Below are positions 740 through 48,975 of a stretch of 64,000 nucleotides of DNA, piece by piece. The notes beneath the pieces are model-generated. The model ran no database searches. It was not told the origin of the DNA and worked only from the letters and a program-made list of their open reading frames with translations. Numbering within the stretch: the stretch's first letter is position 1; every line of letters starts with the position of its first letter. The stretch is from Carcharhinus amblyrhynchos (Eukaryota). The translations under genes were made by a program, and so were the position numbers. The DNA lies in NCBI GenBank assembly GCA_965287045.1, contig OZ336874.1:44206001-44270000 (forward strand), read 5' to 3'.

Positions 740-881
740 CTGATAGCTGAATTAACTTGTGATAAATTATTAAATCTCGTGGTCCATTCAGATTAGAGAC
801 CAAAGTTAGCACATGTTGACCAGAGAACTTGTTGGCTTCGTGAATGGCTTCATTCTCCTCATCAATCCAGAAGGCACTATC
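740..881 (-). CDS. VLDLR: Cassette 3, YWTD propeller exon 5
   Basis: [21 protein letters not shown]; 142 nt; donor GCAAGC (GC-AG intron). Confidence 0.88.
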
Positions 882-12800: not shown

Positions 12801-15800
12801 TTGACTGCCACAGAAGCTGGTTCCCTCAAGTCTGTGTCAAAGAGGATCTTTCTTTCAGTTCCATTAAATGTAGCCACAGAGATAGTTTTAGCACCACGAT
12901 CTGTCCAATAAATATGCTTGTAGATCCAATCCACTGCAATCCCCACAGGAATTGCAACATCCTTGATAACTTGAGAAATACTGGTTTTACTTTTCTTTTC
13001 ATACATGAACATACTAAGGAAAGAAAAGAATACCATTGTTACATCAACTAACCTAAATGTGAGCTTTAGAAGCTGGAAATGCTTACTACCAAAGCCAAGT
13101 TGAAATTTATCAATCCTCTTCAACATACATACAATAAGGGTAGCTGAAGTTCAGATATAGACTGACAGTCAGATTAATAGTGACTAGTTCTAACTGAAGT
13201 TATGGGATCAAGTCAAAACCTTCATGCAGTTAAACAAAATCAGCTTTATTCTTGTTAAGAATATTTTACCCAAAAACAGTACCATCTAGCAAAAAAGTTC
13301 AGTTTCAGTACTGTAACCACCAGTATTGCTTCTTGTTTCATTACCTGAAAATTGCTTGCTGCCCCAAGTCAGCCCAGAAGATTCTCTGTTCAGCAATGTC
13401 AGCACCCAATGCGACAGCATTTCTCAGCTGTGCAGCTACCTGGGTGTACTCGTGGTGATGCAGTCCTAGCTTTCGGATGTCATGACGATTAGTAAAGATT
13501 AAATAAGGCTCTTTGCCTAGGAAAAGATAGTATTTACACAGTTCAGTAGTGTACACTAAATTTCCTTGCTCAAACAGCCCAATAGACCATATTAAGGACA
13601 TGGTTACATCTAGGGCCTGAAGTTAACTCAAACAGCTCGAGGCCCCCAAATTCATGGCAACCAGAATTTCAGATTAAATTCCATGCAGTGCCATCTAGCT
13701 TTACCAAGGCCACATGTCCCAAATAGCAACACTGGGCAAGTCAGTGTTGATAAAGCACATTAGAGATGACACTATCAAAACCCTTCACATGTCAATAACA
13801 AGCTTGGATCCAAATACTCAGCTTCTTGGTCTGGTATTAAACTCAGATTTGTTAATTTCAATATTAACTGAAAACGAGTAGTAGTGAGGTGTTGCTTTGT
13901 GTTCAAGCTAGGAGTGGAAATAACAAATTTTTCCAAAATACACAATCAGGGAGGTAAGATTCACCATCCATTTTTGGTGATGTATCCAAGGTGCAGCAAC
14001 AAAATTAGAAGCAACAAAAACTTTGCATCAACATGACTCAAAAAGAACATGCTTGCTACTTTTGATAATTTCTTTACCCTAGTCTTCCAAACATCTTCAA
14101 TTTTCCACTTGGGATATCACAAATTACTCAAGTACAAGAAAGCAGCACCACCACATTTTAACAAACTAAACATCAAGCTGGGAAGTCATTTTTGTTCCAT
14201 TTACCTCCAACTGCCTTGCAAATGTGATTCGTTGCATCCATGCGATATCCTGCAAAGCATGCACATTCAAAGCTTCCGTTTATATTAATGCAAATTTGAC
14301 TGCAGGCACCAGGATCCTGACATTCATCAATATCTATAAAAAATTCAAATACTCAAGGTTTTAGGCAAATGAGGCAGAAATTTTGCTCAGACTTCCAACT
14401 AGTTAATCTGAGCTGATTTCAAAATCAGAGTCTAATCAATACACAGATGGTTCCAGAAAGCAACTGTCCCTACCTCAATCTTCAGGAGGCTTACCCAGAG
14501 ATCAGTGCAATTGTAATCTACCTTGTCAGGACATGCCCTAAATCTGGCCACCTTTGACAAAAATATTGGTGCACAGCCTTCTTGAAATAATGCAACCCAT
14601 AAGAGATGGTACTCCCAAAAAAGTGTTTTAGGTAGGGAGTGCCAGTTTTAACCTAGTGAAGATACATGTATAATTCTGACTTGCACATTACCTAGGTACT
14701 ATGCCAGCAAGTGGAGCAAAAAAAAACCAACTTGCCCAAGAGGTCTTGGCAAGTAGACCATGTGTACTATAGACAAATAAGGTGTAGTGGAGGCCTTAAA
14801 ATTAATGACCATGGAGTCCTTACATTCAACTTGCTTGGGTAGCTACACCATTTGTGGTCAGTTGACTTCCTGGGTGTTGAAGATGGAAGATCAATGGCAA
14901 TACCACTAAATATGTAGATGGTTGTAAATCCTTTGCCTGGCATTTGGATAGTTAGAGCATCTTCATTCTCTCTCCATGAAATTTTGCTCAGGATTATATG
15001 TCAGCAAGTCACTTACCTTCACAGGCTGTTCCATTAATCAACTCAAAGCCAGCAGGACAGTCACATTCATAACCAATCACAAGATCTCTGCAGATGTGAG
15101 GGCAACCTCCATTGTTCACTAAGCATTCATTTAGGTCTGTACAGAGAAAGAAAGAATGAATGCTTTATAAATATGGAACTAGAATACTTGCAGTTTGATT
15201 TATTGATTCTGCATAGTGAGGGGGACATCTTTAGTCCAGAATTCATTGTAGCACTATATTTAAGCACTCTGCCAAAAAAAGTTAGCAAAGGAAATTTTAT
15301 GTAAACCTACATGTTTCATATAAAATGGAGTAATGGAGTGTTGCAAAACAAAGTTATCCAAGCAGAACATTAAGGATTTTTGTAACAATGATAATTAAGT
15401 ATATGACCAGCTATATTTAAACTGCTCAATAGCAACTAATTCTGGGTTCCAAAGAGTTTGAAAATTTAATTGAGAATGAGTATGTTATGACTGCATTACT
15501 TTAGGTTTCAAGTCCAGATAGTACATGAAGTGAAGCTTAGTTCTCATCAAGGCACTTGACTTCATAGCATGGGAAGGAGTGTAATAAGCAGGCCAACTTA
15601 GTTAAATTACTCTCCATTTCAACATTAAAGTTACACCAATTGTGGAACTCCCCACACAATTTGTGGGGTCTAAAATGGCCTGGATTGTGAAATGTGCATC
15701 TAATTTAGTTCAAGGCACCTGTCAAGTCCTGACATTCCAAACAATTACCATAATCTAGGTTGTGTGGAAACTCAAATGTACTCTCCAGTATAATGAGGTT

Positions 15801-18800
15801 CACAATCTCCAGTTTGCCAATGTTAAAATTCATTTCATACATTGAACAATGGAGGCCCAAGATCACGTCTTGGAGTGGTGCAAGAATAAGACAGAATAAG
15901 ACAAAATAAGACAAGTGACAAAAGTAGGTTTAAACTATAGTATAAAGGCAAAAAAAGTATGATGCAGAGGGGGTCAGGGAAGGAAATCAGTTAACATAGC
16001 TGTAACCCCACTGCCAAAAATGATGGCTTGCACCAAGTCAAGAATGTAAAAATTCTGTTTTTAAGAGCTGGATTAGATTAGAGAAAGGGAAGGATGGAGG
16101 GTCAAAGTCTATAAAAGGCAAAAATTGTGTTGGGAGCAGGAAGCCAAATGCAAAAAAAAAGTGAGAACAGGAACAAAAGATGGTGCTGCAGAGCTTTGAA
16201 TGTGCCAAGAGCGAGGGACAAGCATTGTAATGTCACGAGGCAAGAGAAGACTCTGCTGACGGATTGTACTAGGGACTTACAGGATTAAATACTGAAGGCA
16301 AGCAAGTGCTCAGGCAGTGGAAAGAATGTCAAAAGTCAGAAATTCTGCTTATGGCTGAACAGAATGTGAAGGTTGTGAACCTGAGGCAATAATATATCAG
16401 GACAGTAGTTAGACCAGCACAGGTTGTGGTCGAAGCTACCAAGATGGAGTATTATAAGCTCAAGAGGAGGGTAGAGGCTTGATAGAGTGGAAGATATTAA
16501 TGTGAATTCTTCATATTTTTAGATATTGCCAAAGGATAAAAGTGATAATGACACAGTGAAGAAAATACATTGCCAGTGATGCTCTGATGAATGGTATAGC
16601 CAAGTGCAGAATAAACTTGATTTGGACAAGAGGAGCAGTTTCATCAGTGCAAAGGATTTGGGGGGTGGGGGGGAAGAAAGAGGAAGATTTAAGCACCATG
16701 GTTGAGATGAATATAGGAGTAAATTAAATTTAGTTTTCAAATTAAAAAGCCATAAATACACTTACAACAATATTTGAGGGGCTCATCACTCCAGTCCTTG
16801 CAATCCTGATGCCGATCACATACTTGGTCTTTAGCTATGCATTCTCCACTTTGACATTTGAAGTTATTTGGCCCTGTACATTCTAGGGACAGAGAAAGTC
16901 AGGTTAGTGACTTGGAAATGGCAACTTAATTCTTATCCAGTGGACAGATACTTACCATTCTTACAGTTCAACTCATCACTGCCATCAATGCAGTCTTTAA
17001 ACCCATTGCATTGCTTGTCTGCAGGAATGCAACTACCATTGCCACATGGAAAGTAATGCGGTGGACATGTTGGATGAGGAGCTGAAAAATCAGATGACAT
17101 TTGATTTACTGAAGAGCTTGACATACACACACTGGCCCAACTTGTCCATGCCACCCAGTTGTTAAAACCACCAAGCTAATTACCCACATCCCTCTTACCC
17201 ATGTAACTATCCAAATGCTTTAAAAAAGACAATTATACCTGCCTCTGGCAGCTCATTTCAGACACTCACCACCCAATGAAAATTGCTCCTCTGGATCCTT
17301 AAACCTATGTCCATAGTTTTAGGCTCTCCTACCTTTAGGAAAAGATGTTGACTATCTACTTATGTCCTGCATGTTATAGTCCTCTAGAAAAATCACCTTG
17401 GAAATCTCAGGATAGGCTGAGTGAAAAGGCACAGCTCCTTCTCCCCAATACATTGACTTAATGAGCAAGTTGAGCTATCCTCTTGAAATAGCTTATCAAC
17501 ACCTCACCATTAATACCATTGGATTTGTTGCATGAGAAAAATTAAAATAGAAGGTGGAACTGAACTTTTAGAGGAATGCACATAACTATTAGAAAATACT
17601 GCTATTAAAAAGTTAAGCATAAATTAGAACATAGCTAACAAACGATTGGTTATTAAGTTTTGCTCATTGTACACCATCTACTTTGCATCAAGACCAAATA
17701 CTAAACAACTGAAACTGCATACACTTGCACATGCAAAGTAATCAGCAATGCAAGCACATTTAAAAAAAAACAGGATTTGTAAACACCAAATTTCCATCAC
17801 AAGTGTCAGGGCATCATCCAATATAGAGATGGGTTCTGTTTGTCAGAAAAGCAGCAATGGCAGTTCAGGATCATTGACCAACCCCTGATATTTGCTCATC
17901 TATAATACTTGGTAGGAACAGGGCTTTTTTTTTAAGAAAACTGGTTACATCATCTACAGCATAGACAACAGCAAGTTCCAGAGCAGCCATTACTAATGGG
18001 TAATTGTAGATTAGATCCAATCCAATTGGTATGGTATGTCATGTCATGTCATGTCCTCAAGTGCTCTACATTCTACCAGACGTGCTGCCATTGTGTTATA
18101 AAGAGGCTTAGAGATGGAAAAAAAAAGGAATTTCTCCCCCTACCTAACCAGCTATATTCAGTTTATTTACACATTTGCTAGTCAATTCAATTAATTATTC
18201 CAGCCATTTGGTTTTGCAGAAACCAAATCAGCCAGGTGATTGAAGATTTATTAGGAGTGCTTTTTGGGAATAGTGATCATAATTCCACAAGTTAAAAAAG
18301 GTGCTTGTGGATAAGGACAAGAGTGGTCCTTTGGACAGAGGGTAGTCAGAGGAAGGATTGGTCCACTCAAGGATAGCAGAGGGAAACTATACATGGAACA
18401 AGGAAATGGGCAAGGTTTTAAAATGAATACTTTGCCTCGGTATTCACCAAAGAGAGGGATTTGATGGATGAGGAGCCTCAGGTAGGGTGTGTCGATATTC
18501 CAGGTCATGTCAATATCAAAAAATATTTTGGTTGTCTTAAAGCATTAAAGTAGATAAGTCCCCAGGGCCCAACAGGATCTACCCCAGAATACTGAGGGAG
18601 GCAAGGGCAGAAATTGCTGGACCCTTGACAGAAATCTTTGTTTCCTCACTGGCTCTCTAGGATGTCACCTGTAGCCAATGTTGTTCCATTGTTTAAGGGC
18701 AGCAGGATAATCTGGGAAGTTTAGGTCAGTAAGCCTCAAGGTCAGTGGTAGGGAAATTGGAAAACATTCTCAAGGACAGGATTTACTCACATTCGGAAAC

Positions 18801-21800
18801 AATGGACTCTGGGTGATAGACAACATGTTTGTGTAAAGGGGAGGTTGTGCCTCACTAACCTGATTGAGTTTTGAGAAAAGTAACAAAGATGATAAATGAG
18901 ATGACAAAGGCAGTGGATGTAGTAAACATTGACTTCAGTAAAACCTTTGACAAGGTACAAAAAAAAGGTGAAGTCACATAGGATCAGAGAGCTGGCAATA
19001 TGGATACAGAAGCTGATTTGATTAGCAAGTTTGCAGACAACACAAAAATTGGTGACGTTGCAAATAGTGAAGATGATTCAGCAAGATATGGACCAGTTGG
19101 AGAAATGACAGCTTAACCTGAATAATGAATTTTGGAAAGTTCAATGCATGTAGGAATTATACAGTAATGATAGAATCCTTTGGAATATTGACAGGCAGAT
19201 CTGGGTGTACAATGTCCACTGATCAAAGTGGCAATGCAGGTGGATAAGGTAGTCAAGAAACATGGCATGCTTACCTTCACCAGTCAGGGCGTTGAATATA
19301 AAAACTGGTAGGTCATATTGCAGCTGTACAGAACAAGTTAAACTTAATTTAGAATGTGCACACAATTCTGGTCACCACACTACTGAAAGGATGTGGATGC
19401 TGGAGAGGATAGAGGTGGTTTACCAGGATGTTATCTGGTCTGAAGGGTATTAGCTATGAGAGGTGACCTGGTGGAGGTCAACAAGGTTTGAATGGATAGT
19501 CAGATGTGGTTTCCTAGGGTAGAAAAATCAAGTACTGGGGACATATGTTTAAAGGCACATGGGGAAAGTTTAGAAATATATGAGAGAGACAAGTTTTTTT
19601 TAAAAAAATATGCACACAGGTGAATGTCTGCTGCCTGGGGAGTGGTGGCAGCAGCTACAATAGCAGCATTTAAGAGGGAAACTAGATGAATATGTGAACA
19701 AAATGATAAAGGATACAGACTCCATAAGTGCATACTACTTTAGTTAGACAGGCATCATGATTGGCACAGGGTTGGAGGACCAAAAAGGGCCTGTTCTTAC
19801 GCTATACTCCATTAACCAAACCATCTCTGCAAAGTGGAAGCCACAACTTTGTAAGTTGGTGAAGGAGGGGCTTCAGTGTGCACGCACTGTCAGATATTTA
19901 TATATAGTGTTGATGTGGAAATTCAATTGGAAATAGTTGTTCACTAGGTCAATTAGTTTTGATGAATCCAAATTCTCCTGGGCCAAAATGTTTCCTGAAA
20001 TGTTCTTTTCCCCAGGGTCCAAAACAAGAGGGCATAGGTTTTAGGGGGGGGGGGGAGGAATTTAAAAGAAAAAGAGGGACCCGAGGGCGGTGCATATATG
20101 GAATAAGCTGGTGGAGGCAGGTACAATTACAAATCACAAGACATTTGGACAGGTACGTGGATAAGGAAGGTTTAGGAGGGATATGGGGCAAATGGGACTA
20201 GTTCAGTTTAGGAGACCTGGTCAGCATGACTAGTTGGGATAAAAAAGGGCTGTTTCTACACCATACCTGTATGACTCAAGATGGAGGAGGAGTTCATGAT
20301 TACTGGAATACCCTGAAGCTTTTGCTTCAGGCAAAAACTGTAAAAAAGGAGAGTTAAAGAGTAACAGCTTCTAGGAGGGGATTCCATATATGGAGAATAT
20401 CAATATTTAACATTGTCATACAAGCATTCATTACCTGGAACCATCTGCCCAAGGTAGCTGATGAATTTGGAATGTGAGAAACTATTACCTGGACACATTT
20501 GACTATTCAAAAAGCTGTGTAGAGAAACAAACTTCTGCCCACACAGCTCTAATGCATTTTAGAGAAAGACATTTTCTGGTACAACCCAATGTACACTGAG
20601 GGGTCTCATCTGCAAGGATTGAAATTTTACTCAACTGAACTTACTGGAGCTGGATTGGCACTTGCACAAACATGCATGAATGCTATACTGCGTGCTTCAG
20701 ACATCAACATCTGATCATGACCTACAGTGCTATAGAACAAATCATAGTAAGACTGAACTTGTTCCACAAGTGGAAAAAGCAGAACCTGAAGATCTTAAAA
20801 AAAATCACAGCCAGATAAAGTTAAGCTAAGCTTTCAGGTCGAGTATTTCTACTTGACTACCTCACTAAAGATGTTCAAACTGTAAAAAATTCTCCAATAT
20901 GCAACTTAATTTTATTCTACAATTGATGAACTTTGGTGTAGAGACAGTAACTTGAACAGATGGATTGCAACAGTATGACTAAAATATTTTAATGGAGAGA
21001 AAGCTGATAGCATTTTTCACAGATCCTGGAAAAATTGATACTTGTCATCCACATACTACCAGGTGTACAGAGACAACTAATTTGGCACTTAGTTTTCCAA
21101 TGTTATCCAAGGTCAGTTCTTTACACAGACCTTTGGCATTGTCTTCTGCTTATCACTCCAAATCAGTGAAAATGTCAGTGGCATTCTTGGAGCCAGCTTG
21201 CTAAAAGTTACCTATTTCACAGCACTCAAATCTGCTACCCCAATGTGGCACTAATAAAAAGTTAGACCACTTACAGCAGTTGGCTTCATCACTTCCATCT
21301 TTACAGTCAGTATCACCATCACAGTACCATCGAGCATGGATGCATTCACCAGAATCACACTGCCTTTCAGTAGGCAAACAAGTCACAAAAGGAAGCACAT
21401 GCCCACAACGTTCTGGAGATTCATCAGATTGGTCAGTACAGTCAGTGTTAGTGTCACAGACCCAGCCCAAAGGGATGCATTCAGAATTATTACACTGAAA
21501 CTCATGTGGGCCACACGAAATTGGTGCACAGTTTTTCTCATCACTTCCATCACCACAATCATCATCACTATTGCAAACAAATGCCTTGGAAATGCATCTG
21601 CCATTTGCACAGGTAAACTCTTCTGCACTGCAAACAACGTCTGAAAAACAGTTTTATTGCAAACAAAAAGGTAAATATTTTGTAAAACCTAGAGACAACA
21701 GGTGACAATTTTAAAAAGATGAGAATTTCAATGAAGGATAATTTATTGTAAAAATTAAGCCAGAATATTGCATTCATTCTGGACACTATTCTAGAAATAG

Positions 21801-24800
21801 ACAGAGGCACCAGAATATTGAGGGGTGAGACTAAGACAGGGCTATTCACAGGATGAACAAGGATAGATTTAAAAATCATTAATAAAAAGGCACAGATTAA
21901 CTAGTGAATTCAGGAGGGTCCAAGCTGAAGGTTAGTGGCAAAATTAAGTTCCAAAATGTGAGGTTGGTATTAAGGTAGCAGCAGAGTGAACAATTCTATA
22001 GCACAGATTAAGAGCTTTCAAAACTTAATGATCCAGCATCTACTTACCACAATCATTCTCATCTCTGCCAGTAGTACAATCCTCTACTCCATCACACTTC
22101 CAAAAGATGGGAATACATGGTAACCCAGGGCCACAGCTCATTTCATCAGAAGCACAGGTCCTCTTGTCTAAAAGAAAAAGCATATTAAACTCTACAAGAC
22201 TTTTGTCCAAGTAGGAAGTCAGTCAGGGTTTCTACCAACATTAGGACAAAGCAAAATAAGACAGGCCATGGAGTTGAGAAGTATGGAGGCAAGTTTGAGC
22301 AGCCAAATTGCATCTAACTGGTTTATACAAATGCCAGAAGTTAACCCAGAGATAACAGGACCCCATTCCTTCACAAGGATATTGCAACAACCCTCAAAAG
22401 GGGAAGGAAAAAAGATGGACTCCACATTGTGCAAGGATCTACACTAATGCCAGTGTAATCATTACTGTACAAGCTGCCAAAAACAGCAACATAATGACCA
22501 GAATTTTACTGCAATGCAGATTGAGATATCAATATCAGCTAGATGGGAATAACTTGCTGGCCTAAAGTGCCATGGTATCAACCCACTGGGCAAGGTCAGA
22601 CAGGACATCTGTTTAACATCCTATTCAAAAGGATAAAAATCATTAGCATGAGCTTGGGAGTAATTACCCACTAGTTTCACAGAATGTGCCAGAAAAACAA
22701 GCACTGATGCATTCAGATGTGGTTTCACATCACTAAGTGCTTCCTGCCCTGAAAATTTAAATATGGCATTGATTCCTTTCAAAAAGGTTAGTATTCAAAT
22801 CTCAACCTAAATTGTAGTTTGGTAGTACAGAACTTGAATACTGCTGAAGAGAATTATATTGCAAAAGCAATCATTTAATTTGACAATTTATGCCAAAGTG
22901 TTGAATGGTTGCCAAGTCCAACTCTGATGAAGTATTGCCACAAAGCACCAATAATTGAAGTGCAGGCCTGAACATATTTCTCTTGTTTGCACAACAGATC
23001 CCTGCACATGAGCATGTCACTTCCAGCCTTTTGGCTAAGATCAAGCATAGTATTGACATCCTGCATTTAAGGCTTCAAATGAAGCCTTTTTTTTTTAAAA
23101 AGAAACAGCATCTTGGCCTTTAAGATGCAAAAAAGACAAACCTTGGAAGTGCAATGCCTACTCCAATAGTTTGGAGCATGTAGATCAAGCCCAAGGTGGG
23201 AAGAAGCTTGCCTGTTTGGTCAGCTTGGATCAGGAATGTCTCACTTGAGATTTAAGGGATTGAATTGTATATAAATAAAGTCACTTCCAGCACACTTCAT
23301 TCAATTGGTGAGTACTGCCCAATTGCAGATTCACATTTAATTTAGTAGATATTTTGGATTTTGTTACTCTGCCTATGTTTTATTTGATCAAATCATTGGG
23401 GTAGTGACCCTCAGCATTGTAGTGATACTGAAATGCATACATGACATTGCCAAATTGTGGGGTGGCTGGTTGATTTAATAGACTGTACTCAACCCATCTA
23501 TACTTGCAAAATAAGAAAATTCATAGAAACCCTACAGTGCAGAAGAGGCCATTCAGCCCATCAAATCTACACCAACCACAATCCCATCCAGGCCCTACCC
23601 CACATTCCTCCATATTTTACCTGCTAATCTACCACAATTTAGGACATGGGGGAAATTTTAGCATGGCCAATCAACCTAAACTGCACATCTTTGGACTGAG
23701 AGGAAACCCACACAGACATGAGAATATGCAAACTCCACAAAGTGACCCAAGCCAGGAATCAAACCCAGGTCCCTGGAGCTGTGAAGCAGCAGTGCTCACC
23801 ACTGTGCTACCATGCCACCAACTGTTAGACACAAAATTGTTAGACACATTTGCAGTAAACTGATGCCACTCATTTACATTCAAGGAAACGTATTCAACCT
23901 TCAACTTCTGAATTACCAGATTGTGAAATCCTCTCTGGCAAAACCTTAACTATGAGCCAGCTATCACTGCATTATAAAGAATCTGAAATTTAGCAACTGT
24001 CTCAATGAATACAAGACAAAGTTACAGCAATATGGCCCTTTCCAGCAATATTGTTCAGTCTAGAATAGTCCTGTTACTTTCTTACTCTTCAAGTAGATCA
24101 GATCTGTGGTCAAAAAGTCTAGAATAAAAACTGGACAGTTGTCTGTAAGGGGACTAGCAACTGTTTTAAGCAAGTCTTAAAAATACTGCATGGGGTGGGG
24201 GGAAAAGAGAAAAAAGGCAATAGACTGCAGTCAGTTTAAATTGACTGATCAATAAACCATTTGCTGGAAAAGTCAAAACCATCAGCCTTATGCCTATGTA
24301 AAGTCCAGAAAGAGAAGCAGCAACTCCCATTCTGAGTCAGCTTTAATAACCCATTCCCTAAAGCACATATATTGACAATATCAAATATAGGTGTTAATTT
24401 AATATTCAAAACCATTGAAGAGGCTAAGTGAGATTTAGTAACCATCATGCAGACTAATTTACCTAAACCGCAAACAAAAATTACTCCCAATTCAAGTGTT
24501 GTTTACACATTTAAAACTGAATATTTGCTTATATGCAATAGCAAATACTTACAGCAGAGTTCTGTGTTTTCATCAGATCCATCTTCACAATCAGCATGAC
24601 CATTACACTTCAGCTTATTGGGTATACATTGCCCATTGTGGCACACAAAGTCTGATGCTTCACAGGTTGCAGTGTTAACTGTTTGGAAGGAGGATCAATT
24701 AAAATAAGATCTTACATATTACTAACCAGAACATCTATTAGAGAGAAATAGCAAGAGTGGTTTAAGCTGCTAAAGATTCATATGCAGTTGCACTCTACCT

Positions 24801-27800
24801 CTGGTTCCACAAGCACCGGTTACCCATATACTTCACATGTAGCTGAACAAGTGGTAGGCCATCCTACCAGGCATTAATTTCATTGCTCTAGGGCAAGGCC
24901 AGACAACTAAGACAGAAGTGGACCAGTATCTACAAAGAGCAACCTGCAAGTTACAAATTTGAACTGGCAAGAAAAAAACAAACCATGACATTTGGGGCAT
25001 TTAAAGTTAAAACAGCATATCATAGAATACTGCAGATAATTTACTATCCAATGCCAAAACTGCTGAACTTCAATTGCACAATTCACCTCACATGATGGCA
25101 ATTTTTAGGTGTATTTATTTAGTAACAGTCCAAACCTTTGTGGCAGGGGATCTCTTGATTATGCATGCCCACCAGTTTAAAATGCATAGTTTACTGATTT
25201 TAAACTAGGGACAGGAAATACTGCACAAGGAATATTTCCAAGAGGTCTTTGGAAGTTTATAGCTCCAATTCAGAAATTGATAGCTGGAGACACACTCAAG
25301 AAACAGAAGGAAGGGATCCTAGAAATTCAGGGAGAAGTCCATCAGAACTTTGTTCTGACTCCAGATGTCAAGGCGTTTCAGATTTCCAGCTTAGATGCCC
25401 AATATGATTGAGCAATATCTTGCTCAATCAAGTAGTATGTGAAAAAGCATTGAACTTAAAAATTCAACTCGCAAATATCTGCCCACAAGTCAGCAAGGCA
25501 AGTCTATCAAATGCACTCATCTGCAGGCATTCACCATTATTTGTGAGAATTTTAGCCACACATGCATCTATGTTGCAATTCATTTGTTAATGACTTACAA
25601 CTAGTCAACTGAGACTCCTTGAATATTTTTGTGAAATTGTACTTTATACAGTGACCAGATTAGTGACTTCAATTGCAGCAATTTTGACCCATTCAATAAG
25701 TGGAAGCTTTTTGTAGTCAATTACAATCAATGATTCATAGACTATTTTACATTTGAGCTTTGAGTAATGAATTGGGCAGAATTGTGTTGCTCAATTTCTA
25801 ATACCTTTCCCCCAGATGGTGACTAAATTCCAGGCTATAACATTCAATGTTAAATACGTGAACAAGCTAAAATTGTTCTTACTTCTTGTACACCGCTTTC
25901 CATCTTTGTTCAGTTCAAAGCCAGCTGGACATACACAAGTATGTGTTACTGAATTCACAGATATGCGAGGAGCAGGAAGACACATGTATTCACAGCCTCC
26001 ATTCAAACTCTCACTGCACCAATTTTTGCCTGTTGAAAGTTTAAGAAAATCATCACTGGGAAAAAGGCATGTAATCAAATCATTCAAGATTAGTTCTGCC
26101 ACACAGCTCGCCAATTCAGAATTTTGATTTACTACAAACTTAAGTTTTTGTTATTAGTGATATAAAATGTTACATCAGTCAACTTGTCAAAGAACAAATT
26201 GGTTTCCATAGGGTGACAAGGATAAAGGCTTACTGTACAATTACAGCAATCAGCCAATAGAAGTACAATCTCTTGTCAGATTGCTAGTTACAAAACTAAA
26301 AGATTATTGCAGCACAAGATTTACTGCTTGGAATAGCTTAATCTTAAACACAAAGGGGATGATTTTAGGGCAATGCTGGCACAGTAGTTAGTACTGCTCT
26401 GTCAGCTCTAGGGACCCGAATTCAATTCCAGCTTTGTGCAACTCCAGGCAGTTGCACATTCTTCCCATAACTGCATGGGTTTCCTCCCACACTCCAAAAA
26501 TGTGCAGGTTAGATAGCATGGCTGGCCAACCAAAATCACCCCTTAGTCAGGGGATTAGCAGTGTAAATTCATGGGAATACAGCCTATGTGGAATTGCTGT
26601 TCATGCAGGCTTGATGGGCCAAATGACCCCCTTCTGCACTGAAGGGATTCTATGATATTTCATTTTCCAAATTGATTTGAGTTAATTTTGACTAGCTGAT
26701 TCTTGTACAGCTCATGAGAATGGCAAGTCTCACCCTTAAATCAAAATGTCCTACCTGATGGCTGTGTTAACTTGTGATAAGCAATCATATCATGAGGTTC
26801 GTCGAGATGGGAGACTAATGTCACCACATTGGCCCCTGTGAACTTATTAGCACTATAAATGATTTCTTCCTCACCATCAATCCAAAAGATACGATCCTAA
26901 AACAGTCAAATTAGATATTACCCAAAATCTTGAATTGATGCCAGTGCAAGTATACCTTGATTTGTACAAAATGCATACTTCAACTGACATTTTTAGATGC
27001 AAGACTGATGTATACAAGCAAAAATACAGAAAACAAAGAAGGACTTGTTTCAAAGAAAGAGAATGACTTCCAAACAAAAGTCCACAAATATTAAAATCAA
27101 GTTACAAATTACATTGACTTACATAAGGTACTTTCCCCTTAAACTTCTACCCCACAATTGAATCCCTTACTAGCACCAGTTATTTTTGGATTTGATATTT
27201 TAGTTAACACCCATAACCTGGATAACAGAAAATACACTTGTTAGCTGATGCTAATTCTGCACACTAGTCACAAAACTGGAGTAGATCAGTTACTTTCCTA
27301 CAATAGGAGGAAACATTTGCTTTTTGCATATCCCTCCAACAGTAAGCCAACATCTATTGGTTGTTTAAAGAATAATTGAGTCTTATTCAGTATCTAGCTA
27401 TTAGCTGATCTGAGGGGGTGGTATATCACTCCCTTACTTGCAAATACACCATTTAAGACTTTGAACTCAATACATAAATAGTACTAACTGGGTTAAATGA
27501 GCTTACAAGCTCGTGCTGCTTAATTCAACTCCAGCTCCACTTACAGTAATTAAAGTTCTGGCGATGCCTCTTACCTCAAAGATAGACACAGCAAGAGGAT
27601 GGATAAGAAATTCTTCAGACTGCAATACAGTTCTTCTATCCTGACCATTTAGATCAATGCTCGACAGCATGTGCAGTTTTGAATCAACCCAGTAAAGGCG
27701 GCTTTTCACAAGATCTGTGAACAGATTTGATGTATGGAGTTAAGCAAAACCCTGATAATGAATGCTGCAAAGCAGGTTTCAGTTTACTTACCAAGTGTAA

Positions 27801-30800
27801 TGCCATTTGGCCAATAAATCTCTCTGCTGACAAAAAGCTGGCGGTCAGCACCATTCATGCCTGCTTTTTCAATCTTTGCAGGCTCACCCCAGTCTGACCA
27901 GTATATAAACCTTATAATCCAAAAAGGAGAAAAAAGAGTCAGAAGAGGAGAACTTTTGAATCAAAATGCTTCACTGGGTGAAAATGATAGTTTCTACTGG
28001 CATTGTCAAAGTTACATTTTACTGGATTCGGTTTGACAGCCACAACATAACCTCAAATGTTTAACATAGATACAAGAGCCCACTATTTTCCAGAGTTTGG
28101 ATAATATTCAAGTGTGCCATCAAAAGGATAGCAAAAGACAAAACTTCAAGTTGAATTGTAGCAAATTAAAGTTAAACTATGAATAATCTGACCATGCTAC
28201 CTCTTTATATCCACAGGTCATGCTTAGTTATAGACAATTGAATAAATCAAAATGACTTATGAATTAAACTCAAGTGGCTAGCATTACTAGTTAATTGGCC
28301 ACTTTGATGTCAAGCCAACCAACTTGGTATGAATTACTGCCAAACACTTTCCTTCTGATACCCTGATGACAAGTTTAAATTCTTTAGTACCCAGTAAGTG
28401 GATCAGCAGCTATAGATCCTGGTTCCTTTAGATTGGTATCAAAGAGGATCTTCCTTTTGGTTCCATCAAAGTTGCTCACTGAAAGAATTTTAAGGCCTGC
28501 ATCTGTCCAATAAATGTTCTTGTGGATCCAATCAACTGCAATTCCCAAAGGAAGGCGTGTATCATTGATGACTCTGGCAATCTCCATTGCACCACTTTGG
28601 TTATCTATTGATTTACTGCAAAATGAAGTCACAGTAGTAAATACAAAACCTGGATAAAACATTCAAATTTAAAATCTAGAAATTCAGGATTGAAGTTCAC
28701 ATTTGTGCAACCCCCAGTGAGCAGTTGTATATTATTGGTTGGAACACTTTAGCTCCAAAGTTTGATACTTGTCAGACTGTAACTATTAAAGTATTTAAGG
28801 GTAATGCACAGGTTTTGTTTTAGTAAGAGGTCTAGTTTAAATCCTTTCTCCTCAACCAATATCTTGTAAATTAGGAATGAGAGCAGCAAAACAGAACTAG
28901 GTGACAATCTAATGTTTGTATTTCACTTGGCATGATATTTGCATTCAAGTGATTTAAAATACTTTGGGTTTCACAGCTCTAGTGGGACAGAAAGGAGGGT
29001 GGGGAAAAACAATGGCAGCTGAGTTGTGGCCAGAAATCACAAGTTTCCACTTGCTTTCATCCAAGGAGTAGCCCCCTGCACAGGCTTGCTCCTGTTCAAA
29101 AGGACCAATTCATTTCTTGCAGACTCATTAGCAGTCCATTTCTGGCATGTCGTCAGACCTTAAGGCAGCTGGAATTTGCTGCAGACCAACTGGATGGAGG
29201 CAAAAACTGTAACAGAAGCAGGAAGAGTTCTCCATTGCCAGGAGTTGTTTTCTTAAATGCAGTGTTACCATGTACAGCATTCAATTTGAGTCATGAAAAT
29301 AATTTGATTTTAAACAACAGCATTTTTGTTTCATGAAAAAGGCTGTTGAATGATGAGAACACTTTGGGTTAAGTTCACTAGAGAAGTCCAACCTCTAGTT
29401 GTTACCAGTCTGGGTTTCTGACACTTGTCATATGGTTTTGGACTCCATTTATAATTTGCAAAGGAGCCTCTGGAGCAAATAGCATTAATATTCTCCATGC
29501 ATCAGTTCTTAAACCTCAATTTAAGAAGTTCACATTCTAATTCTCCCTATATTGCACTTGGCATTTTGATCGAGCGCTATTTTAAATTCATTTGCCCTGC
29601 ATCTAGTTCAAAAGAAGTTAATGATTTCAGTTTGTGACTCTACAAGAGTTATAGCCTTCAGCCTTACATTTTCACTTCCAAGTTAAAAATGGAGACCCCA
29701 TCCTTTGGATCACTATCACCTTCTCCTGCATATTGAATGGTGGCTGAATGAATTGCTTCTTAGGCTCTATCAATCTCAGATCTTAATGTTGCACCATAAA
29801 CCAATTACCATATAAATTTCACTTTATACCATGCCTTTGAGCAAAAAGCAATTCTCCCATCCAAAATCAGGTTGGAACAGTGGCAGGCTTTTAACCTGTG
29901 CTAGAGTCAACCCACCTCAGGTCTACTCGAGTAACTCAGCAGCTAGCACTGCTGCTTCTGGGATTCAGGTTCCATTCCTATCTTGGGGGTCAGTATGCAG
30001 AGTCTGCAAGGGCTTCCATCAGGTGCTTTCTTTCTCCACCCCCTTCCTCAAAGACTTGGTTAGATGCGTTGGCCACACTAAATTCTCCCTCAGGTGTACC
30101 CCAGTTAGGTGCTGGAGCAGTAACTCGATTGCAGTATTAATGTAAGCCTACATGTGACTAAAACTTTTTCTAGCTCAATTAGAATACCAATCCCTGGAAG
30201 TTCTACATCCATGATGGAGATGCCAGCATTGGACTGGGGTAAACAGCAAGTCATCTCAACACCAGGTTAAAGTCCAACAGGTTTATTTGGTAGCAAATGC
30301 CTTTTGCTACCAATTAAACCTGTTGGACTCTAACCTGATGTTGAGACTTCTTATTGAAGAATACATCCAGGCAGGGCTGCAATCTGGAAGAATCCAATTC
30401 AGGAGAGGCAAAGCCAGCCAGTGTTAGCTGATTGATCAATGTTTATTCAAGTGGCTCAATGCAGAAAGACAGATCTTGAATTGAAAATTCTCAAAATAAG
30501 TCATTACATAGAGTTTCAGAAATCTTACCTAAAAATTGCATGATGGCCCAGGTCAGCCCAGAAGATTTTCTGCACTGCAATGTCAGCATCAAGTGCTACA
30601 GCATTTCTCAGCTGATCAATTATCTGAGTGTATTCCATGTGATGCAATCCAATTTTCCTGATGTCATGACGATTAGTGAAAATTAAATATGGCTCTTCTC
30701 CTGTAGGGGAAAGCCAACACATGAACAATGGTTTCCTTTTGTAGAAGTCTTTGCAGTCATACAGCACAGAAGATAACCATCTGGCCCATCGTGCCTGCTC

Positions 30801-33800
30801 CAAGAGCATAAGATTCCTTGTGGAATGTCCCCTTTCTCAAAATACCCCTCTTCTCAGATGTGAAGCTATGACAGCAAACTTACAAGATCACACAATTGAG
30901 ATTGATGATTTGTTCCCAATAGTTTATAGGGATGACAATAATAAACAGGCTCTCTGCAAGACACTGAATATTCCAACTTTTGTACACCCACCCCCACCTT
31001 CCCCAAACTCATCTGGGTTCTGATGATGGCCCATGGTGTTGACCACCATACCATGTGCCAGGCTGTCATATTTTAACCACCCAGTTCTTTTCCCTGCTGG
31101 TATGACTGAATTGATGTGTACATAAAAGGGCAAGTGAAGCAAGATGCATGCTGATTGCTCCATAGATGTGTACAGTGTTCCCCTGCATCCAGTGCAGAAG
31201 TATTTAGCCATTTGGAGCTGATACATATTAAACGTAATCAAATTGTATTCTTGGTCATAGTCAGTGAACGAGTCAGCTTGCAGCCCAGAGATGGAGAGCA
31301 ACCTCATGCAGCCCAATCAACCTAGGTAGCTCATTGCTGGTCAATAGCAATAAATGCAGTTCAAACAGTGGACCTAAAACACTCCTCTCAAGTGTCAACC
31401 CAGATGGATTTTACATAGGTAATGATACTTAACCCAGCCTGTCATGTACCAAAAGCTGCAAACATCTACTTCAGCTTTGAATCAGCCAGTTTAGGGTTTA
31501 GTTATTTACCTTCAGTTCTTCAGCACACGTTATGCTGTTAAATACCTGCATATTGTTGTGTATAACAGTGTTTCACAGCAGACTTAATTGAATATTTTCA
31601 AATACTGTACTTGCCCACAGCCTTGCAACCCCCATTGATTGGATCAATGTGATATCCTTTATGACAGTCGCACCGATAACTTCCATTTAAATTGATGCAA
31701 ATTTGACTACAGGTTTCTGGATTTTGACATTCATCAATATCTGCAAAGAAAGAAATATCCTTTCAAATTCATGATCTGAGTCAATTTGGAAGAAAATTAG
31801 TGGAATTGAACTTGCCTGCACAGGATTTCTTGCCCACCAGTTCAAAGCCAGGTGGACATTCACATTCATAACCAATGGCAAGATCCCTGCAGATATGAGA
31901 ACAACCACCATTGCTCACCAGACACTCATTTATATCTGCAAAACAAAATTGGAATTTCTTTTGTATTGGAGTCTCAAAGGCTATTACAAGACAGTAACTC
32001 CACCATAAGCAGTGTAAAATTAAAACAGTATAAATCGATTAGTTTGTTTAGTGAATGCAAAGTCCTCAAGCAAACAGTTTCTTCCAGTCCTGCTGTATTG
32101 AGTTTGGATAGGCCTCTATGGAGTCTGTAGATTAGACACTGATGGTTGTGCGTAGCTTACACTCCCTTAGGAGAAAAGGCTAGCTCTAATGCCCCCTCTG
32201 TGGGGGTTCACCAAAGAGGGTCTGTGGCTGTGCCTGAATCTGAGTGGACCACACTTTCCCTGGCAAGTTGAAACAAGTTTAAGGCCAAGTACTTGGTCAC
32301 ATTCAATGATTCCCATTCACTTGTCTAGATGGAATATACATTGAAATCCTGTTTGGAGGTGGCTCTCCCCCCACCCAAATGGGTGTTCCAGTATGGATAT
32401 GCATGGTAGCATTCAGCTGGATGTGAGTCATGTGAGATGATTTTGACCAAAGGGCACAGTATTTTGCTACAAGCATGGGGTTCAAGTGCTGAGGTTTGGA
32501 GGGCAGTGATAGCAACACCCCAGAGTAGTCTCTATCATGGCTGCAGCTGTTTAGGTGTTCCTGGAAGATCAGCATCCTATCTAGAGTCACATTGAACTAT
32601 ATTGAGTTAGTGTTTTAACTTGCAGCCATTTGGATGTTGAGCACTATTGGCTTTTGCCTTGTGAAAGTGGAGGGTTTGCTTTGAATCACCATGTGTTGAA
32701 GTATTGTTCAAATTTTGACAAGTCCTCATTTAAGATCTAGTCAGAGATTGAGGCCAATATTGTTGGCATATATGAATTTGGGAGGTAGTTTCTGGAAGAT
32801 CATTGCTGTACAAGTTGAACAGGGTTGGAGCAACAGTCTTGATTTGCCTTTTCCATATACTCTATGGCTGCTAAAGTGAACTCTGAACTTTTGACTGTTC
32901 AATAGTACTGCAATGCTGTTAGCCACTCAGGGGAGAGGGGCAGTGTGCCAAATGGTGTTATAGGCTGCTGTGAAGTTCAGAAACAGCAACTGTCCAAGTT
33001 TTTGAAAGCTGTTTTCAACATACCTGTTCCCACACTGTAGTGCTAGCAAAAACCAGCTTGACTAAAGAAGGATTGAGGGATATCTGCTGAAGGAGGAGAC
33101 ATCCAAGAATTTTATAATGGAACTGACAGGCAAGATTGGACAGTTGCTAGCTACAGATATGAGTTCTTTTCCATGTTATGGCAATGGCTTTTACACCCAA
33201 AACAGTTGGAGCCAAGTCCAGAAACAACTTATTGCCAAACTACTTGACCCAACCTAAGATGTTGCTAACACTACCCAAACTTTAGCATAGTTGCAGAATA
33301 CTGCACTCATTTGGTCAAGATTACAGTTGATAGCCAGCTAAATGCTACCATTTGTTATTGTTTTGGCATTCACAGCCATCATGCAAAACCAGGTCAGCTA
33401 GACAAAATCTCAGGGCCCCCAAGTGTTTCATAACTTTTGGTATATATATCCTGCTGCCTTGTCACACTTCAAACCCTGTAGGATCTTCGTTCTTCCACAA
33501 CCTTTAAGACATTTTTTAAATTTTGCAACCTCAGAGGGGATAGCACTGATGTTTTTTGTTGATGTGTCTCCATTCACCACAGATCTCTCTTTTGGTGTTT
33601 TTGTTCAGGGGTGCTGTAGTATGGCAAATAGGTGGCCAGAGGCATGGTTGGGAGTAATTGGGATAATTTTTGGCTTTTGGGTTGCTTTAAGGTAATGGAT
33701 CAGGCTCCAGCACTCCCTGCTGCAGTGTATGATCTACTGATATTAGAAACTTTGACACATCTACATGTACAAACCAGCAGCAGGGTTAGATCTTTCAGCC

Positions 33801-36800
33801 CCTCAAGCCTGCTCTGCCATTTGATAAGATCATGGATGATTGGATCATAGCCTCAACACTACCCACTTTGACAACTGTCAATCATAATTTAAACAGTCTT
33901 AAAAAGTATGACCCTACCGCTACAGAATCAAAGATGAATGATCCTCAGAAACAAAAACTCCCATCTCGACATGGGAAGTTGTCTTCTAGAGAAAAGTACC
34001 TGCCCAGCCAAGTCTTATTCATCATTCTTTTAAACTTCCATTAGGTAAAAACCAAACATGAAAACCTTCATTCCAGGAATCAGTTGGTGAACTTTCTGAA
34101 CTGCTCAATGCAATTATACCAGAAGCCAAATTTGTAGCAGGACTATCCTAATCCAATAGTCCATTCCCCTTTCAATAAAGGCCAGCATCAATTTGCCATC
34201 CTAGTCACTTGCATGCGATTCACACATCCCTGTTCAATTCTGCATTTCTATTCCAAGTGAAGCTCACGTTTGCCCACATTTAACTAAGATCATTTAATAA
34301 AGAACATTGTAATTAGATTAAACCAAATATTGATGCACAAGGATAATCATGACATTACTTGTTAGTGCACTGGAGGGGGGAAAATTTGTGAAGGTGATTA
34401 AGAACAATGTTTATGAATTTAAATCAAAAGACACATTTAATACTAGCAAAATTCAAACTTTTCACAATTAAAAAAGTCTGATAATAGCCTAAAAACACCT
34501 GCCCCTGTCTGCCAGCCTTATTTCAGTTTGCAGAAATAGGAGAAGAAATAAGTGGAACTATAAAGCTACATACAACATTCTTTTAGGGGCTCATCACTCC
34601 AGTCTTTGCAGTCTTGTCGCCGATCACACACTTGACTCATATTTATGCATTCTCCAGTTTGGCATTGGAAATCAGAAGGCCCTGTGCACGCCAGAGCTGG
34701 TAGAAGGAAAAAAGTTGAATGAGTTTTGAACCAAGGAGCTCAATAAAGTGCTCTTAAACTCTACTGTCTACTTACTCTTACAGTTGTGCTCATCACTACC
34801 ATCAGTACAATCAATAAAGCCATTGCATCTCTTGCTTTCAGGAATACATTTATCTCCACATTTGAAGTGACCAAATTTGCATATTGGAGCAGCTGCCAAA
34901 CAAAAACTCAATTTAAGAAACAGGAATCACGTAGCAAGCCAACAAATTCGGACAATATTTAACATGCTCAATTTTAAAATAATGCTCCCAAATATTTCTA
35001 ATATAAACTTCTGTCACAAACCATAATTAAAATGTACCCCTAAAAGGTTTCTCATGATTCTCCCCCACTATTTTATTAATTTATGTGACCAGTATTTATT
35101 ATATCCCTAGTTGTCCTCAAAAGATAGTGAGGACTGCCTTTTGAATCACTGCAATCTCCAATATGTAGGTACATCCATAGAGCTGTTAGGGTAGAGTTCC
35201 AGGATGTCGACCCAGTGGCAAAGACGGAAACACACTATTTCTAAGTCAGGATGGTGTGTGGCTGAGAAGGCAACTTCCAGGAGGTTGTGTTCCCAGATAT
35301 TTACTACTCTTGTCCTTTGATATGGTAGTGGTTGCAGCTTTGTCAAATGCTTCCTGAGGAGTCTTGGGGAGTTCCTGCAGTGCATTGTGTAGATGCTCAG
35401 ACAGCTGATGAATATTTGTGGAAGGGGTAGCAAAAGGGTTGCTTTGTCCTGGAATGTGTCAAGCTTTGTGTTATTGGAACTGCACCTATCCAGGCAAGAG
35501 GAGAGTATTCCACTACAATCCTGACTTGTGCTTTGTAGACATTGCAAAGGTTTTGGTGAATCAGGTGGCAAATTACTTGCTACAGGATTCCTATACTTTG
35601 ATCACTACAGTATTTACACACTAGGCTAGTTCAGTTCCTAGTCAATGATAACCTTTGTATAAGGACGTGCATGGTATTGATGTTTCTCTTTTAATCCACA
35701 GGTGCTTCGGTCTGCCTTGTTGTCCAACAAGGGGCATACGAGGGCTGCTCTTGGATGTTGAGTAGCCTAGTACTTCACGTCATTAGTGTATGCTTAAACT
35801 GGACCAGATGCTGGGCAACACGACAGCTCAGTCACTATCACTGTTTGCTGTGCAGATACATGGATTTGGGCCAGTGTCTGTGGGAGTTTGCGCATTCTCC
35901 TTGTGCTTGCGTGGGTTTTCTCCGGGTGCTCCGGTTTCCTCCCACACCCTAAAGATGTGCTCTTAGGCTGATTGGTGTAACAAATTGTCCCTAAATTAGT
36001 CTTCCCCCAATGTGGAATGCCATAAGCATAGACAAGGGTCATGGGTGGAGAGGGGACTCAATCTTAAAATGGCAGCGAGGGCTCATGGGGCCAAAGGGTC
36101 TGTTTCCTGTGTTGTGTTGTTCTTTGTAACCCTCATGTTGATAATGGGGGATTAAGCAATGGCAATGCCATTGAATGTTTCTAGCTATGTCAGGCAACAT
36201 TTCCATCCCTGCAGCACATTATCTTATGGTCAAGGAAAGAAAGTCATTACCTAACTGAAGATGTTTTTGTCAAACAGTCTGTCCCACCCACTTGTTAATC
36301 TGTCAATTGGAAATGCTGGACTGTCAAACATCACAGCAAAGAAATGCTCAAACCATTTGGGAAGAAAAATACACTTTTAGTGTTGCAATGACTTTTCTCC
36401 AGAATTAGCATCCTGGAGGTTAGAAACAAAAATTAAGATGCAGAATGGGATTAAATTAGTTCAGATGTCATGGGCTCCATTTTTCCTTAAAATAATCTCA
36501 GACAAAACAATAGTGATTCCAGGATGTCCTAAAGTATTTTATACCCATTGTTGATTGTATACAAACAGTGGCAGGACACAGGGACAGCATGTTATTCAAA
36601 TACAGTCATAGAATCTTTTATATCCACCCAAGGCATCAGAAAGATCTGATGATTATTCCATCCAAAAGACAGTATTGTGCCTTCAGTAAGGGGCTCAAAC
36701 TCAACTTCCTGACTTGTGTCCACTCAGGCACACCAGAACTACAGGTAAAGCAACTGTATTTTTAAAAAAAAGGAGGCAAATTCTGAACAAGTGGCACCAA

Positions 36801-39950: not shown

Positions 39951-40250
39951 ATCGTGAGCCAAAGCGGGAATCCAAAATCTGAAACTGTTCCTGGGCAGCC
40001 AAATACACAGAAATTGTAATTCCCCTTCCCTTTTCTGATCGATCTGAACTAAATGACATGAATCCTTTTTTTTATCGTTTTTCTTAACCCCACCCCACGA
40101 TTAATTGGTCATTGGGTGTTTGTTATTTCAATTAGCTTGTTCAGTTGTAGATAAATTCATTCGCATTGGTGCCCGGTAAAGATTGATTCATTGCATATCA
40201 TTAACCTTAGTGCAATCGGTTCTTGCTGCTAATGGTAAAGGGTTTTCGTT
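39951..40250 (-). promoter_or_regulatory. Putative promoter and 5' UTR of the VLDLR-like gene
   Basis: Local CpG retention; minus-strand CCAAT at 40104-40108, 40111-40115 and 40165-40169; SRE-like CCCACCCCAC at 40089-40098. Confidence 0.55.
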
Positions 40251-48905: not shown

Positions 48906-48975
48906 AATTTGATGGTGGAATTTGATCCTGGGTCCTCAGAGCATTATCCCGAGTCTCTGGATTACTTGTCCAACG

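What the first reader, a model, noticed from the sequence alone, without database searches (positions are those of the whole stretch)
24553..26029. Cassette 1-2 junction: EGF-C appears to splice straight into an LA2 exon
Seen: only 1204 bp (24679-25882) separates the EGF-C phase-1 donor from the LA2 phase-1 acceptor. I see no O-linked sugar, transmembrane, NPxY, signal-peptide or LA1 exon and no CpG-retaining promoter in it. The cassette 2-3 junction has the same layout (EGF-C ends at 9505; the LA2 remnant starts at 8392). Inference: the duplicated unit ran from the intron before LA2 to the intron after EGF-C, a phase 1-1 module. This is the main evidence for one fused gene rather than three tandem genes.
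Basis: partly seen in the sequence, partly recalled or inferred. Interest (0 to 1): 0.7.

Follow-up and report, generated by a model that had tools for sequence, protein, structure and literature searches.

The report
Known five-unit shark VLDL receptor
This junction is an ordinary in-frame intron inside a shark gene that repeats the lipoprotein-receptor outer part five times before one membrane anchor; the gene is already published as VLDLRc3 and likely helps eggs take up yolk.

Summary
No signal, LA1, transmembrane or tail exon lies in this intron. The gene has five units, not three. One signal exon (39950-39884) and one transmembrane tail about 38 kb beyond the window frame 67 exons that join into a 3432-residue frame without stops. 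It is 84.0% identical to catshark VLDLRc3, published with five repeated units and ovary-only expression (PMC10015161). A three-unit gene (VLDLRc2) and the single VLDLR follow, as published. Each unit position forms its own clade, so the array is old. The claimed breakpoint 'intron before LA2' is plausible but not fixed: N-terminal LA exons were lost repeatedly and the introns no longer align. Smaller points not seen in the text I read: no unit keeps LA1, and the unit-3 LA2 exon is dead here but intact in catshark, whale shark and sevengill models. Junction reads remain untested: no RNA run was listed, and the published primers span no junction. Verdict: real, already known, low interest.

The parts
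39400..40400 (.). CpG-retaining stretch around the first exon, likely the promoter
   Evidence: 28 CpG, o/e 0.77, against 0.03-0.13 in the four junction introns (bins)
39884..39950 (-). Signal-peptide exon, phase-1 donor; the only one found for this gene
   Evidence: tblastn of VLDLR heads, E 0.001; sequence; whale shark and small-spotted catshark models begin with this peptide followed by LA3
25883..38421 (-). Unit 1: LA3-8, EGF-A, EGF-B, five YWTD propeller exons, EGF-C (12 exons; no LA1 or LA2)
   Evidence: exon table; no LA remnant in intron 1
25883..26029 (-). EGF-C exon of unit 1, phase 1-1
24679..25882 (-). Junction intron 1-2, 1204 nt, GT-AG, phase 1
25114..25119 (-). Single AATAAA in the junction intron, at background frequency; use untested
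24553..24678 (-). LA2 exon of unit 2, phase 1-1; six cysteines kept, ligand-site Trp replaced by Leu and first Asp by Asn; weak acceptor
9505..24678 (-). Unit 2: LA2-8, EGF-A, EGF-B, propeller, EGF-C (13 exons)
7631..9504 (-). Junction intron 2-3, 1874 nt, GT-AG, phase 1
8279..8392 (-). Dead LA2 exon of unit 3: acceptor reads AA, donor reads CT, 114 nt with frameshifting deletions
   Evidence: also dead in runs X1 and X3
740..7630 (-). Unit 3, LA3 to last propeller exon; its EGF-C, units 4 and 5 and the tail lie beyond the window start (G000:C5:44205883-44168035)

Best explanation
The junction is a phase-1 intron inside the shark gene VLDLRc3, which joins on the DNA into one open frame of five VLDLR outer units and one membrane tail, and is likely spliced that way into a receptor that likely carries yolk precursors into oocytes. 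Shown: exon order, splice sites, a 3432-residue frame with 33 LA modules (6/7/6/7/7), five propellers, one signal exon, one short O-linked exon, one transmembrane segment and a short tail ending in an FENPVF variant of the NPxY motif; orthology to VLDLRc3. Inferred: an old internal duplication joined EGF-C to an LA exon, which keeps the frame because every EGF-C and LA exon is phase 1-1; further duplications multiplied the unit before sharks and rays split; single LA exons have since dropped out without a frameshift. Inferred function: each LA cluster binds lipoprotein cargo at neutral pH, the tail motif drives uptake, and each propeller displaces cargo in acid as in LDLR.
For: 116 of 117 module loci in the three genes gave an open exon with canonical ends; the miss is the dead LA2. 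The 67 exons of this gene join with 0 internal stops. There is one signal exon and one tail per gene and none in the 6 junction introns. Identity: 84.0% over 3347 columns to BDQ29913.1 (VLDLRc3), 92.1% to a Mustelus model, 77.1% to a whale shark model, 62.9% to VLDLRc2. Five full-length models (P0121, P0122, P0123, P0343, P0351) and two partial ones (P0001, P0344) join EGF-C to LA2 at junction 1-2. The locus has 5, 3 and 1 units, as in PMC10015161 section 8; c2 and c3 were expressed only in ovary in catshark. dN/dS is 0.16-0.27 in 10 of 10 pairs of units. In the tree, 8 of 8 unit positions are clades at UFBoot 100, 6 of them with a ray or skate. Residues matching LDLR K560 and H562 are kept in 5 of 5 propellers and H586 in 4 of 5 (their role from passages of PMC5452030).
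Against: No junction read or cDNA was seen. The three published c2/c3 primer pairs map inside one unit or from the last unit to the tail, so they span no junction. The deposited catshark c3 protein lacks a signal peptide, unit-1 LA8 and cysteines at several exon joins, including this one, which looks like gene prediction. Several database models split the gene into pieces; the three c3 pieces checked that stop short of unit 5 end without a membrane segment. The three live LA2 acceptors of this gene are weak (ranks 9, 12, 13 of 116), so LA2 may often be skipped. My exon caller required AG, GT/GC and no stop, so canonical ends are partly by construction. Ligand binding has not been measured (paper's discussion).
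Confidence: 0.9

Rival explanations
1. The full gene exists, but the junction intron is also used to end some transcripts, giving a one-unit short form (secreted, or anchored by the read-through peptide).
For: AATAAA at 25119; read-through gives 30 residues with a 19-residue hydropathy peak of 1.47; the donor is middling (rank 35 of 116) and the acceptor weak.
Against: AATAAA is at background rate; the real membrane segment scores 2.0; 13 of 116 read-through peptides reach 1.1; the other 8 EGF-C read-throughs are 2-14 residues.
Confidence: 0.06
2. The units are separate tandem genes or unexpressed copies, and the fused frame is an artefact of joining exons.
For: No transcript evidence was obtained for the junction; some database models are split.
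Against: No signal exon, CpG-rich stretch or tail lies between units; all 63 module exons are open and under purifying selection; full-length models exist in five other sharks.
Confidence: 0.03
3. On origin only: the first event copied a whole VLDLR gene, or a unit starting at LA1, and the tail, promoter and LA1 between the copies were deleted afterwards. The end product is the same fused gene.
For: LA exons are lost readily: LA1 and LA2 in unit 1, LA2 in unit 3 and in VLDLRc2 unit 2; junctions entering at LA3 also occur in the chimaera sequence of the paper's supplement; whole-gene duplication did occur here, giving three signal exons and three tails.
Against: No junction in this locus (0 of 6) or in the protein models typed enters at LA1, which one LA2-entry event explains most simply.
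Confidence: 0.3

Closest known systems
Chondrichthyan VLDLRc3 (Ohishi et al. 2023, PMC10015161; BDQ29913.1)
   Same: Five repeated VLDLR outer units, first unit starting at LA3, short FENP-type tail, position in a three-gene tandem, 84.0% identity.
   Different: LA2 of unit 3 is dead here and intact in the catshark record; this gene has the signal exon and unit-1 LA8 that the record lacks.
Chondrichthyan VLDLRc2 (BDQ29912.1)
   Same: Same unit, same phase-1 junctions, same kind of short tail; its orthologue lies next door.
   Different: Three units (8/6/7 LA modules), keeps LA1; 62.9% identity.
VLDLR / LR8 / VLDLRc1, the vertebrate vitellogenin receptor
   Same: Each unit has the VLDLR exon series and phases; units are 65-71% identical to the single VLDLR of this genome.
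   Different: One unit, eight LA modules including LA1, and a long tail with an intact NPVY motif.
LRP1 and LRP2 (megalin)
   Same: Several LA clusters alternating with propellers on one chain; database models of this gene are often labelled LRP1-like or LRP2-like.
   Different: Only about 32-44% identical to the junction region against 68-72% for VLDLRc3 orthologues. The units nest with chondrichthyan VLDLR, so the resemblance is convergent.
Teleost Lrp13
   Same: A second ovarian vitellogenin-binding receptor (passages of PMC9935665).
   Different: Described with 7-13 N-terminal LA repeats plus one C-terminal repeat, not whole repeated VLDLR units; not compared by sequence here.

Membership tests
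VLDLRc3 | Five repeated units of the VLDLR extracellular region in one frame | tested here: met
VLDLRc3 | Orthology to named VLDLRc3 rather than c1 or c2 | tested here: met
   84.0% against 62.9%; each unit groups with the same-numbered catshark c3 unit
VLDLRc3 | Tandem position with VLDLRc2 and VLDLRc1 | tested here: met
   5-, 3- and 1-unit genes within about 245 kb of C5
VLDLRc3 | Ovary-restricted expression | not testable with these tools
   no RNA run listed; reported for catshark only
VLDLRc3 | Single transcript across unit junctions | not testable with these tools
   the four runs laid cover introns evenly, so they are DNA
LDL receptor family | LA modules with six cysteines and acidic calcium cage, EGF pairs, YWTD propeller, one membrane segment | tested here: met
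   33 LA matches; exon table; tail
LDL receptor family | Cytoplasmic NPxY internalisation motif | tested here: inconclusive
   FENPVF, Phe in place of Tyr, shared by c2 and c3 orthologues; that Phe can serve in LDLR is recalled, not from a call
Vitellogenin receptor (LR8 type) | Intact first three LA repeats, reported to bind vitellogenin | tested here: not met
   LA1 absent from 5 of 5 units, LA2 from 2 of 5 and altered in a third; the binding claim was seen only as the title of Li et al. 2003 in a reference list
Vitellogenin receptor (LR8 type) | Binds vitellogenin | not testable with these tools
   not measured in PMC10015161 either
LRP1/LRP2 | Descent from LRP1/LRP2 | tested here: not met
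   low identity; units group inside chondrichthyan VLDLR at 99.9/100, though LRP1/2 were not in the tree

The most novel reading that the evidence does not exclude
VLDLRc3 is not a five-fold vitellogenin receptor but a megalin-like receptor rebuilt from VLDLR for a different yolk cargo: every unit lacks LA1, and LA2, behind a weak acceptor, is still being lost unit by unit in living shark lineages, stripping away the classical vitellogenin site while the three-unit VLDLRc2 keeps it.
Probability: 0.25. Interest if true: 0.5.

Novelty: already known. Interest (0 to 1): 0.18.

Why it matters
The fused five-unit gene is in print, so the finding adds confirmation in another shark. What it adds is exon-level: it shows how a megalin-like layout can be built from VLDLR by phase 1-1 duplication, and it gives exact junctions for a test that the paper's primers did not cover. 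It also raises a testable doubt about the paper's suggestion of binding several vitellogenins at once, because no unit keeps the LA1-3 set.

Tried and rejected
RNA test: no RNA holder listed among 5 runs; the 4 laid are DNA and show no exon-exon joint among the listed rows, which says nothing about expression. Breakpoint mapping: blastn among 14 introns gave one 21-bp hit, and the window's self-comparison aligns the units at exons only. Order of duplication: nodes joining unit positions have UFBoot 15-69, so no order is claimed; IQ-TREE used 39 of 64 unit sequences, 587 columns, a shortened search and a bony-fish VLDLR root. A grouping of LA2-entry units at 0.89 in FastTree did not hold. A possible LA remnant near 38800-38730 (E 11) was not supported by the DNA profiles. 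No nearby AG/GT pair gives the dead LA2 an open in-frame exon within 45 nt. The read-through membrane segment and the AATAAA were judged chance. Earlier findings of this scan: 0 in two look-ups. Structure and complex predictions were not run.

Full report
Observation. The coordinates are exact. On the minus strand an EGF-C exon (26029-25883) ends in a phase-1 GT donor, 1204 nt of intron follow, and an LA2 exon (24678-24553) begins after an AG, also phase 1. Pfam confirms the two modules. The LA exon is LA2 by its match to the third exon of the single VLDLR gene of this genome. Twelve head and tail queries found nothing at E<1 in this intron, while the same search found three tails and three signal exons elsewhere in the locus. 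LA1 and LA2 DNA profiles found only the unit-3 remnant among 10 introns. The intron has 4 CpG (o/e 0.10); the kilobase around the signal exon has 28 (o/e 0.77).

The whole gene. The window lies at G000:C5:44206001-44270000. I fetched 300 kb on one side and 100 kb on the other. The locus holds nine units in three genes on the minus strand: five, three and one. Each gene has one signal exon and one tail. For the window's gene the signal exon is at 39950-39884 and is followed directly by LA3. The tail is three exons at C5:44168712-44168035: a 66-nt O-linked exon, a membrane exon and a last exon with FENPVF. Of 117 module loci, 116 gave an open exon with AG and GT or GC ends; the caller required such ends, so the informative point is that a solution of the expected length existed. 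The 67 exons join into 3432 residues without a stop, with 33 LA modules in clusters of 6, 7, 6, 7 and 7. dN/dS between units is 0.16-0.27 in all 10 pairs, with dS near saturation.

It is a published gene. Ohishi et al. 2023 (PMC10015161; I read the abstract, passages, sections 8, 9, 13 and 24, and supplement parts 2 and 8; figures not held) report three tandem chondrichthyan VLDLR genes, with three and five repeated extracellular units in VLDLRc2 and VLDLRc3, both expressed only in ovary in the cloudy catshark. The window's protein is 84.0% identical to their VLDLRc3 deposit over 3347 columns, 92.1% to a Mustelus model and 77.1% to a whale shark model, against 62.9% to VLDLRc2. Five full-length and two partial shark models join EGF-C to LA2 at junction 1-2. 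A search for the gene names returned only this paper, and three related searches listed no other paper whose title or abstract start concerns these genes; the library lacks most subscription papers.

How firm is the fusion at transcript level? Less than the record suggests. The paper lists three primer pairs for c2 and c3. They map, with 1-2 mismatches, within unit 1 of c2, and from the last unit to the tail of c2 and c3, so none spans a junction. The c3 deposit lacks the signal peptide, one LA exon and cysteines at several exon joins. Four whale shark isoforms differ by 1-2 residues at exon joins in units 1, 4 and 5 of one full-length model, which suggests read support for the gene but not for these junctions (inference). 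My own RNA test could not be run (see Tried and rejected). The case for one gene therefore rests on anatomy and conservation, which I rate at 0.9.

History. In a tree of 39 of the 64 unit sequences, all c2 and c3 units form one clade (98.9/100) beside chondrichthyan VLDLRc1, apart from bony-fish and tetrapod VLDLR (99.9/100). Each of the eight shark unit positions is its own clade (SH-aLRT 99.2-100, UFBoot 100); six include a ray or skate. The nodes between positions are unresolved. Units of this gene are 61-70% identical to each other. So the array is old and not homogenised in sharks and rays. Chimaera units join none of these clades, although a chimaera c2 model has the same 8/6/7 layout.

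The breakpoint claim. Of six junctions in this locus four enter at a live LA2, one skips a dead LA2 and one enters at LA3; none has LA1. One first event that joined the intron after EGF-C to the intron before LA2 explains this most simply. It is not proven: LA exons are all phase 1-1 and have been lost several times, the introns no longer align, and later unequal crossing-over would reproduce the junction wherever it fell.

The dead exon. Unit-3 LA2 (8392-8279) has AA for its acceptor, CT for its donor and frameshifting deletions. Contigs of two related DNA runs span it and list no difference at either site; one has a further 30-nt deletion. The Mustelus model shows a truncated module there, while catshark, whale shark, bamboo shark and sevengill models keep it whole. 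The three live LA2 acceptors of this gene rank 9, 12 and 13 from the bottom of 116 on a matrix built from the locus itself. The LA2 at the finding's junction has Leu for the ligand-site Trp in 6 of the 7 orthologue models that cover it, the sevengill model keeping Trp (the role of this Trp is recalled). It likely acts more as a spacer than as a binding module.

Likely working. By family knowledge, LA clusters bind lipoproteins and the propeller displaces them in acid. The exon at 27714-27575 aligns without gaps to LDLR 550-594, and the residues matching K560 and H562 are kept in 5 of 5 units and H586 in 4 of 5; passages of PMC5452030 give their role in release. With ovary-only expression in catshark, an oocyte uptake receptor for yolk precursors is the most likely role. 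The cargo is open: a paper title in a reference list assigns vitellogenin binding to the first three LA repeats (Li et al. 2003, not read), and no unit here has that set intact.

Verdict. Real, correctly described, and an instance of a known gene. Novelty: already known. Interest 0.18.

Noticed in passing
G000:C5:44146188-44099105 (L006-L011): Three-unit neighbour (VLDLRc2 orthologue), 8/6/7 LA modules; its junction introns are only 240 and 323 nt, and unit 2 enters at LA3 as in ray and chimaera models.
   Followed up: yes
G000:C5:44019690-44004522 (L019, L020, L031): Canonical single-unit VLDLR (c1) with an intact NPVY tail.
   Followed up: yes
L032:4243-5589, minus strand: 449-codon open frame with BTB_2 and Ion_trans domains, closest solved relative Kv2.1; likely KCNV2, the usual neighbour of VLDLR (name and synteny recalled).
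   Followed up: partly
window 31816, 31615, 740; C5:44197463, 44177896: Five GC donors among the 63 module exons of this gene, mostly after EGF-A and EGF-B exons.
   Followed up: no
window 46857-47186 and 48579-48908: 330-bp direct repeat at 96.7% identity upstream of the signal exon; probably mobile-element DNA.
   Followed up: no
window 17024-20343 and 22336-24327: High-copy interspersed repeats inside unit-2 introns (very high contig depth); they account for the long introns of unit 2.
   Followed up: no
P0020, P0242, P0361 (chimaera models): Four of five chimaera units cluster together (45.7/84, inner nodes 86/94 and 93.1/97) rather than by position, a hint of gene conversion or separate expansion in holocephalans.
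   Followed up: partly
PMC13320814, passages: Ducks are reported to have 6-34 VLDLR copies, a separate VLDLR expansion in another large-egged group.
   Followed up: no
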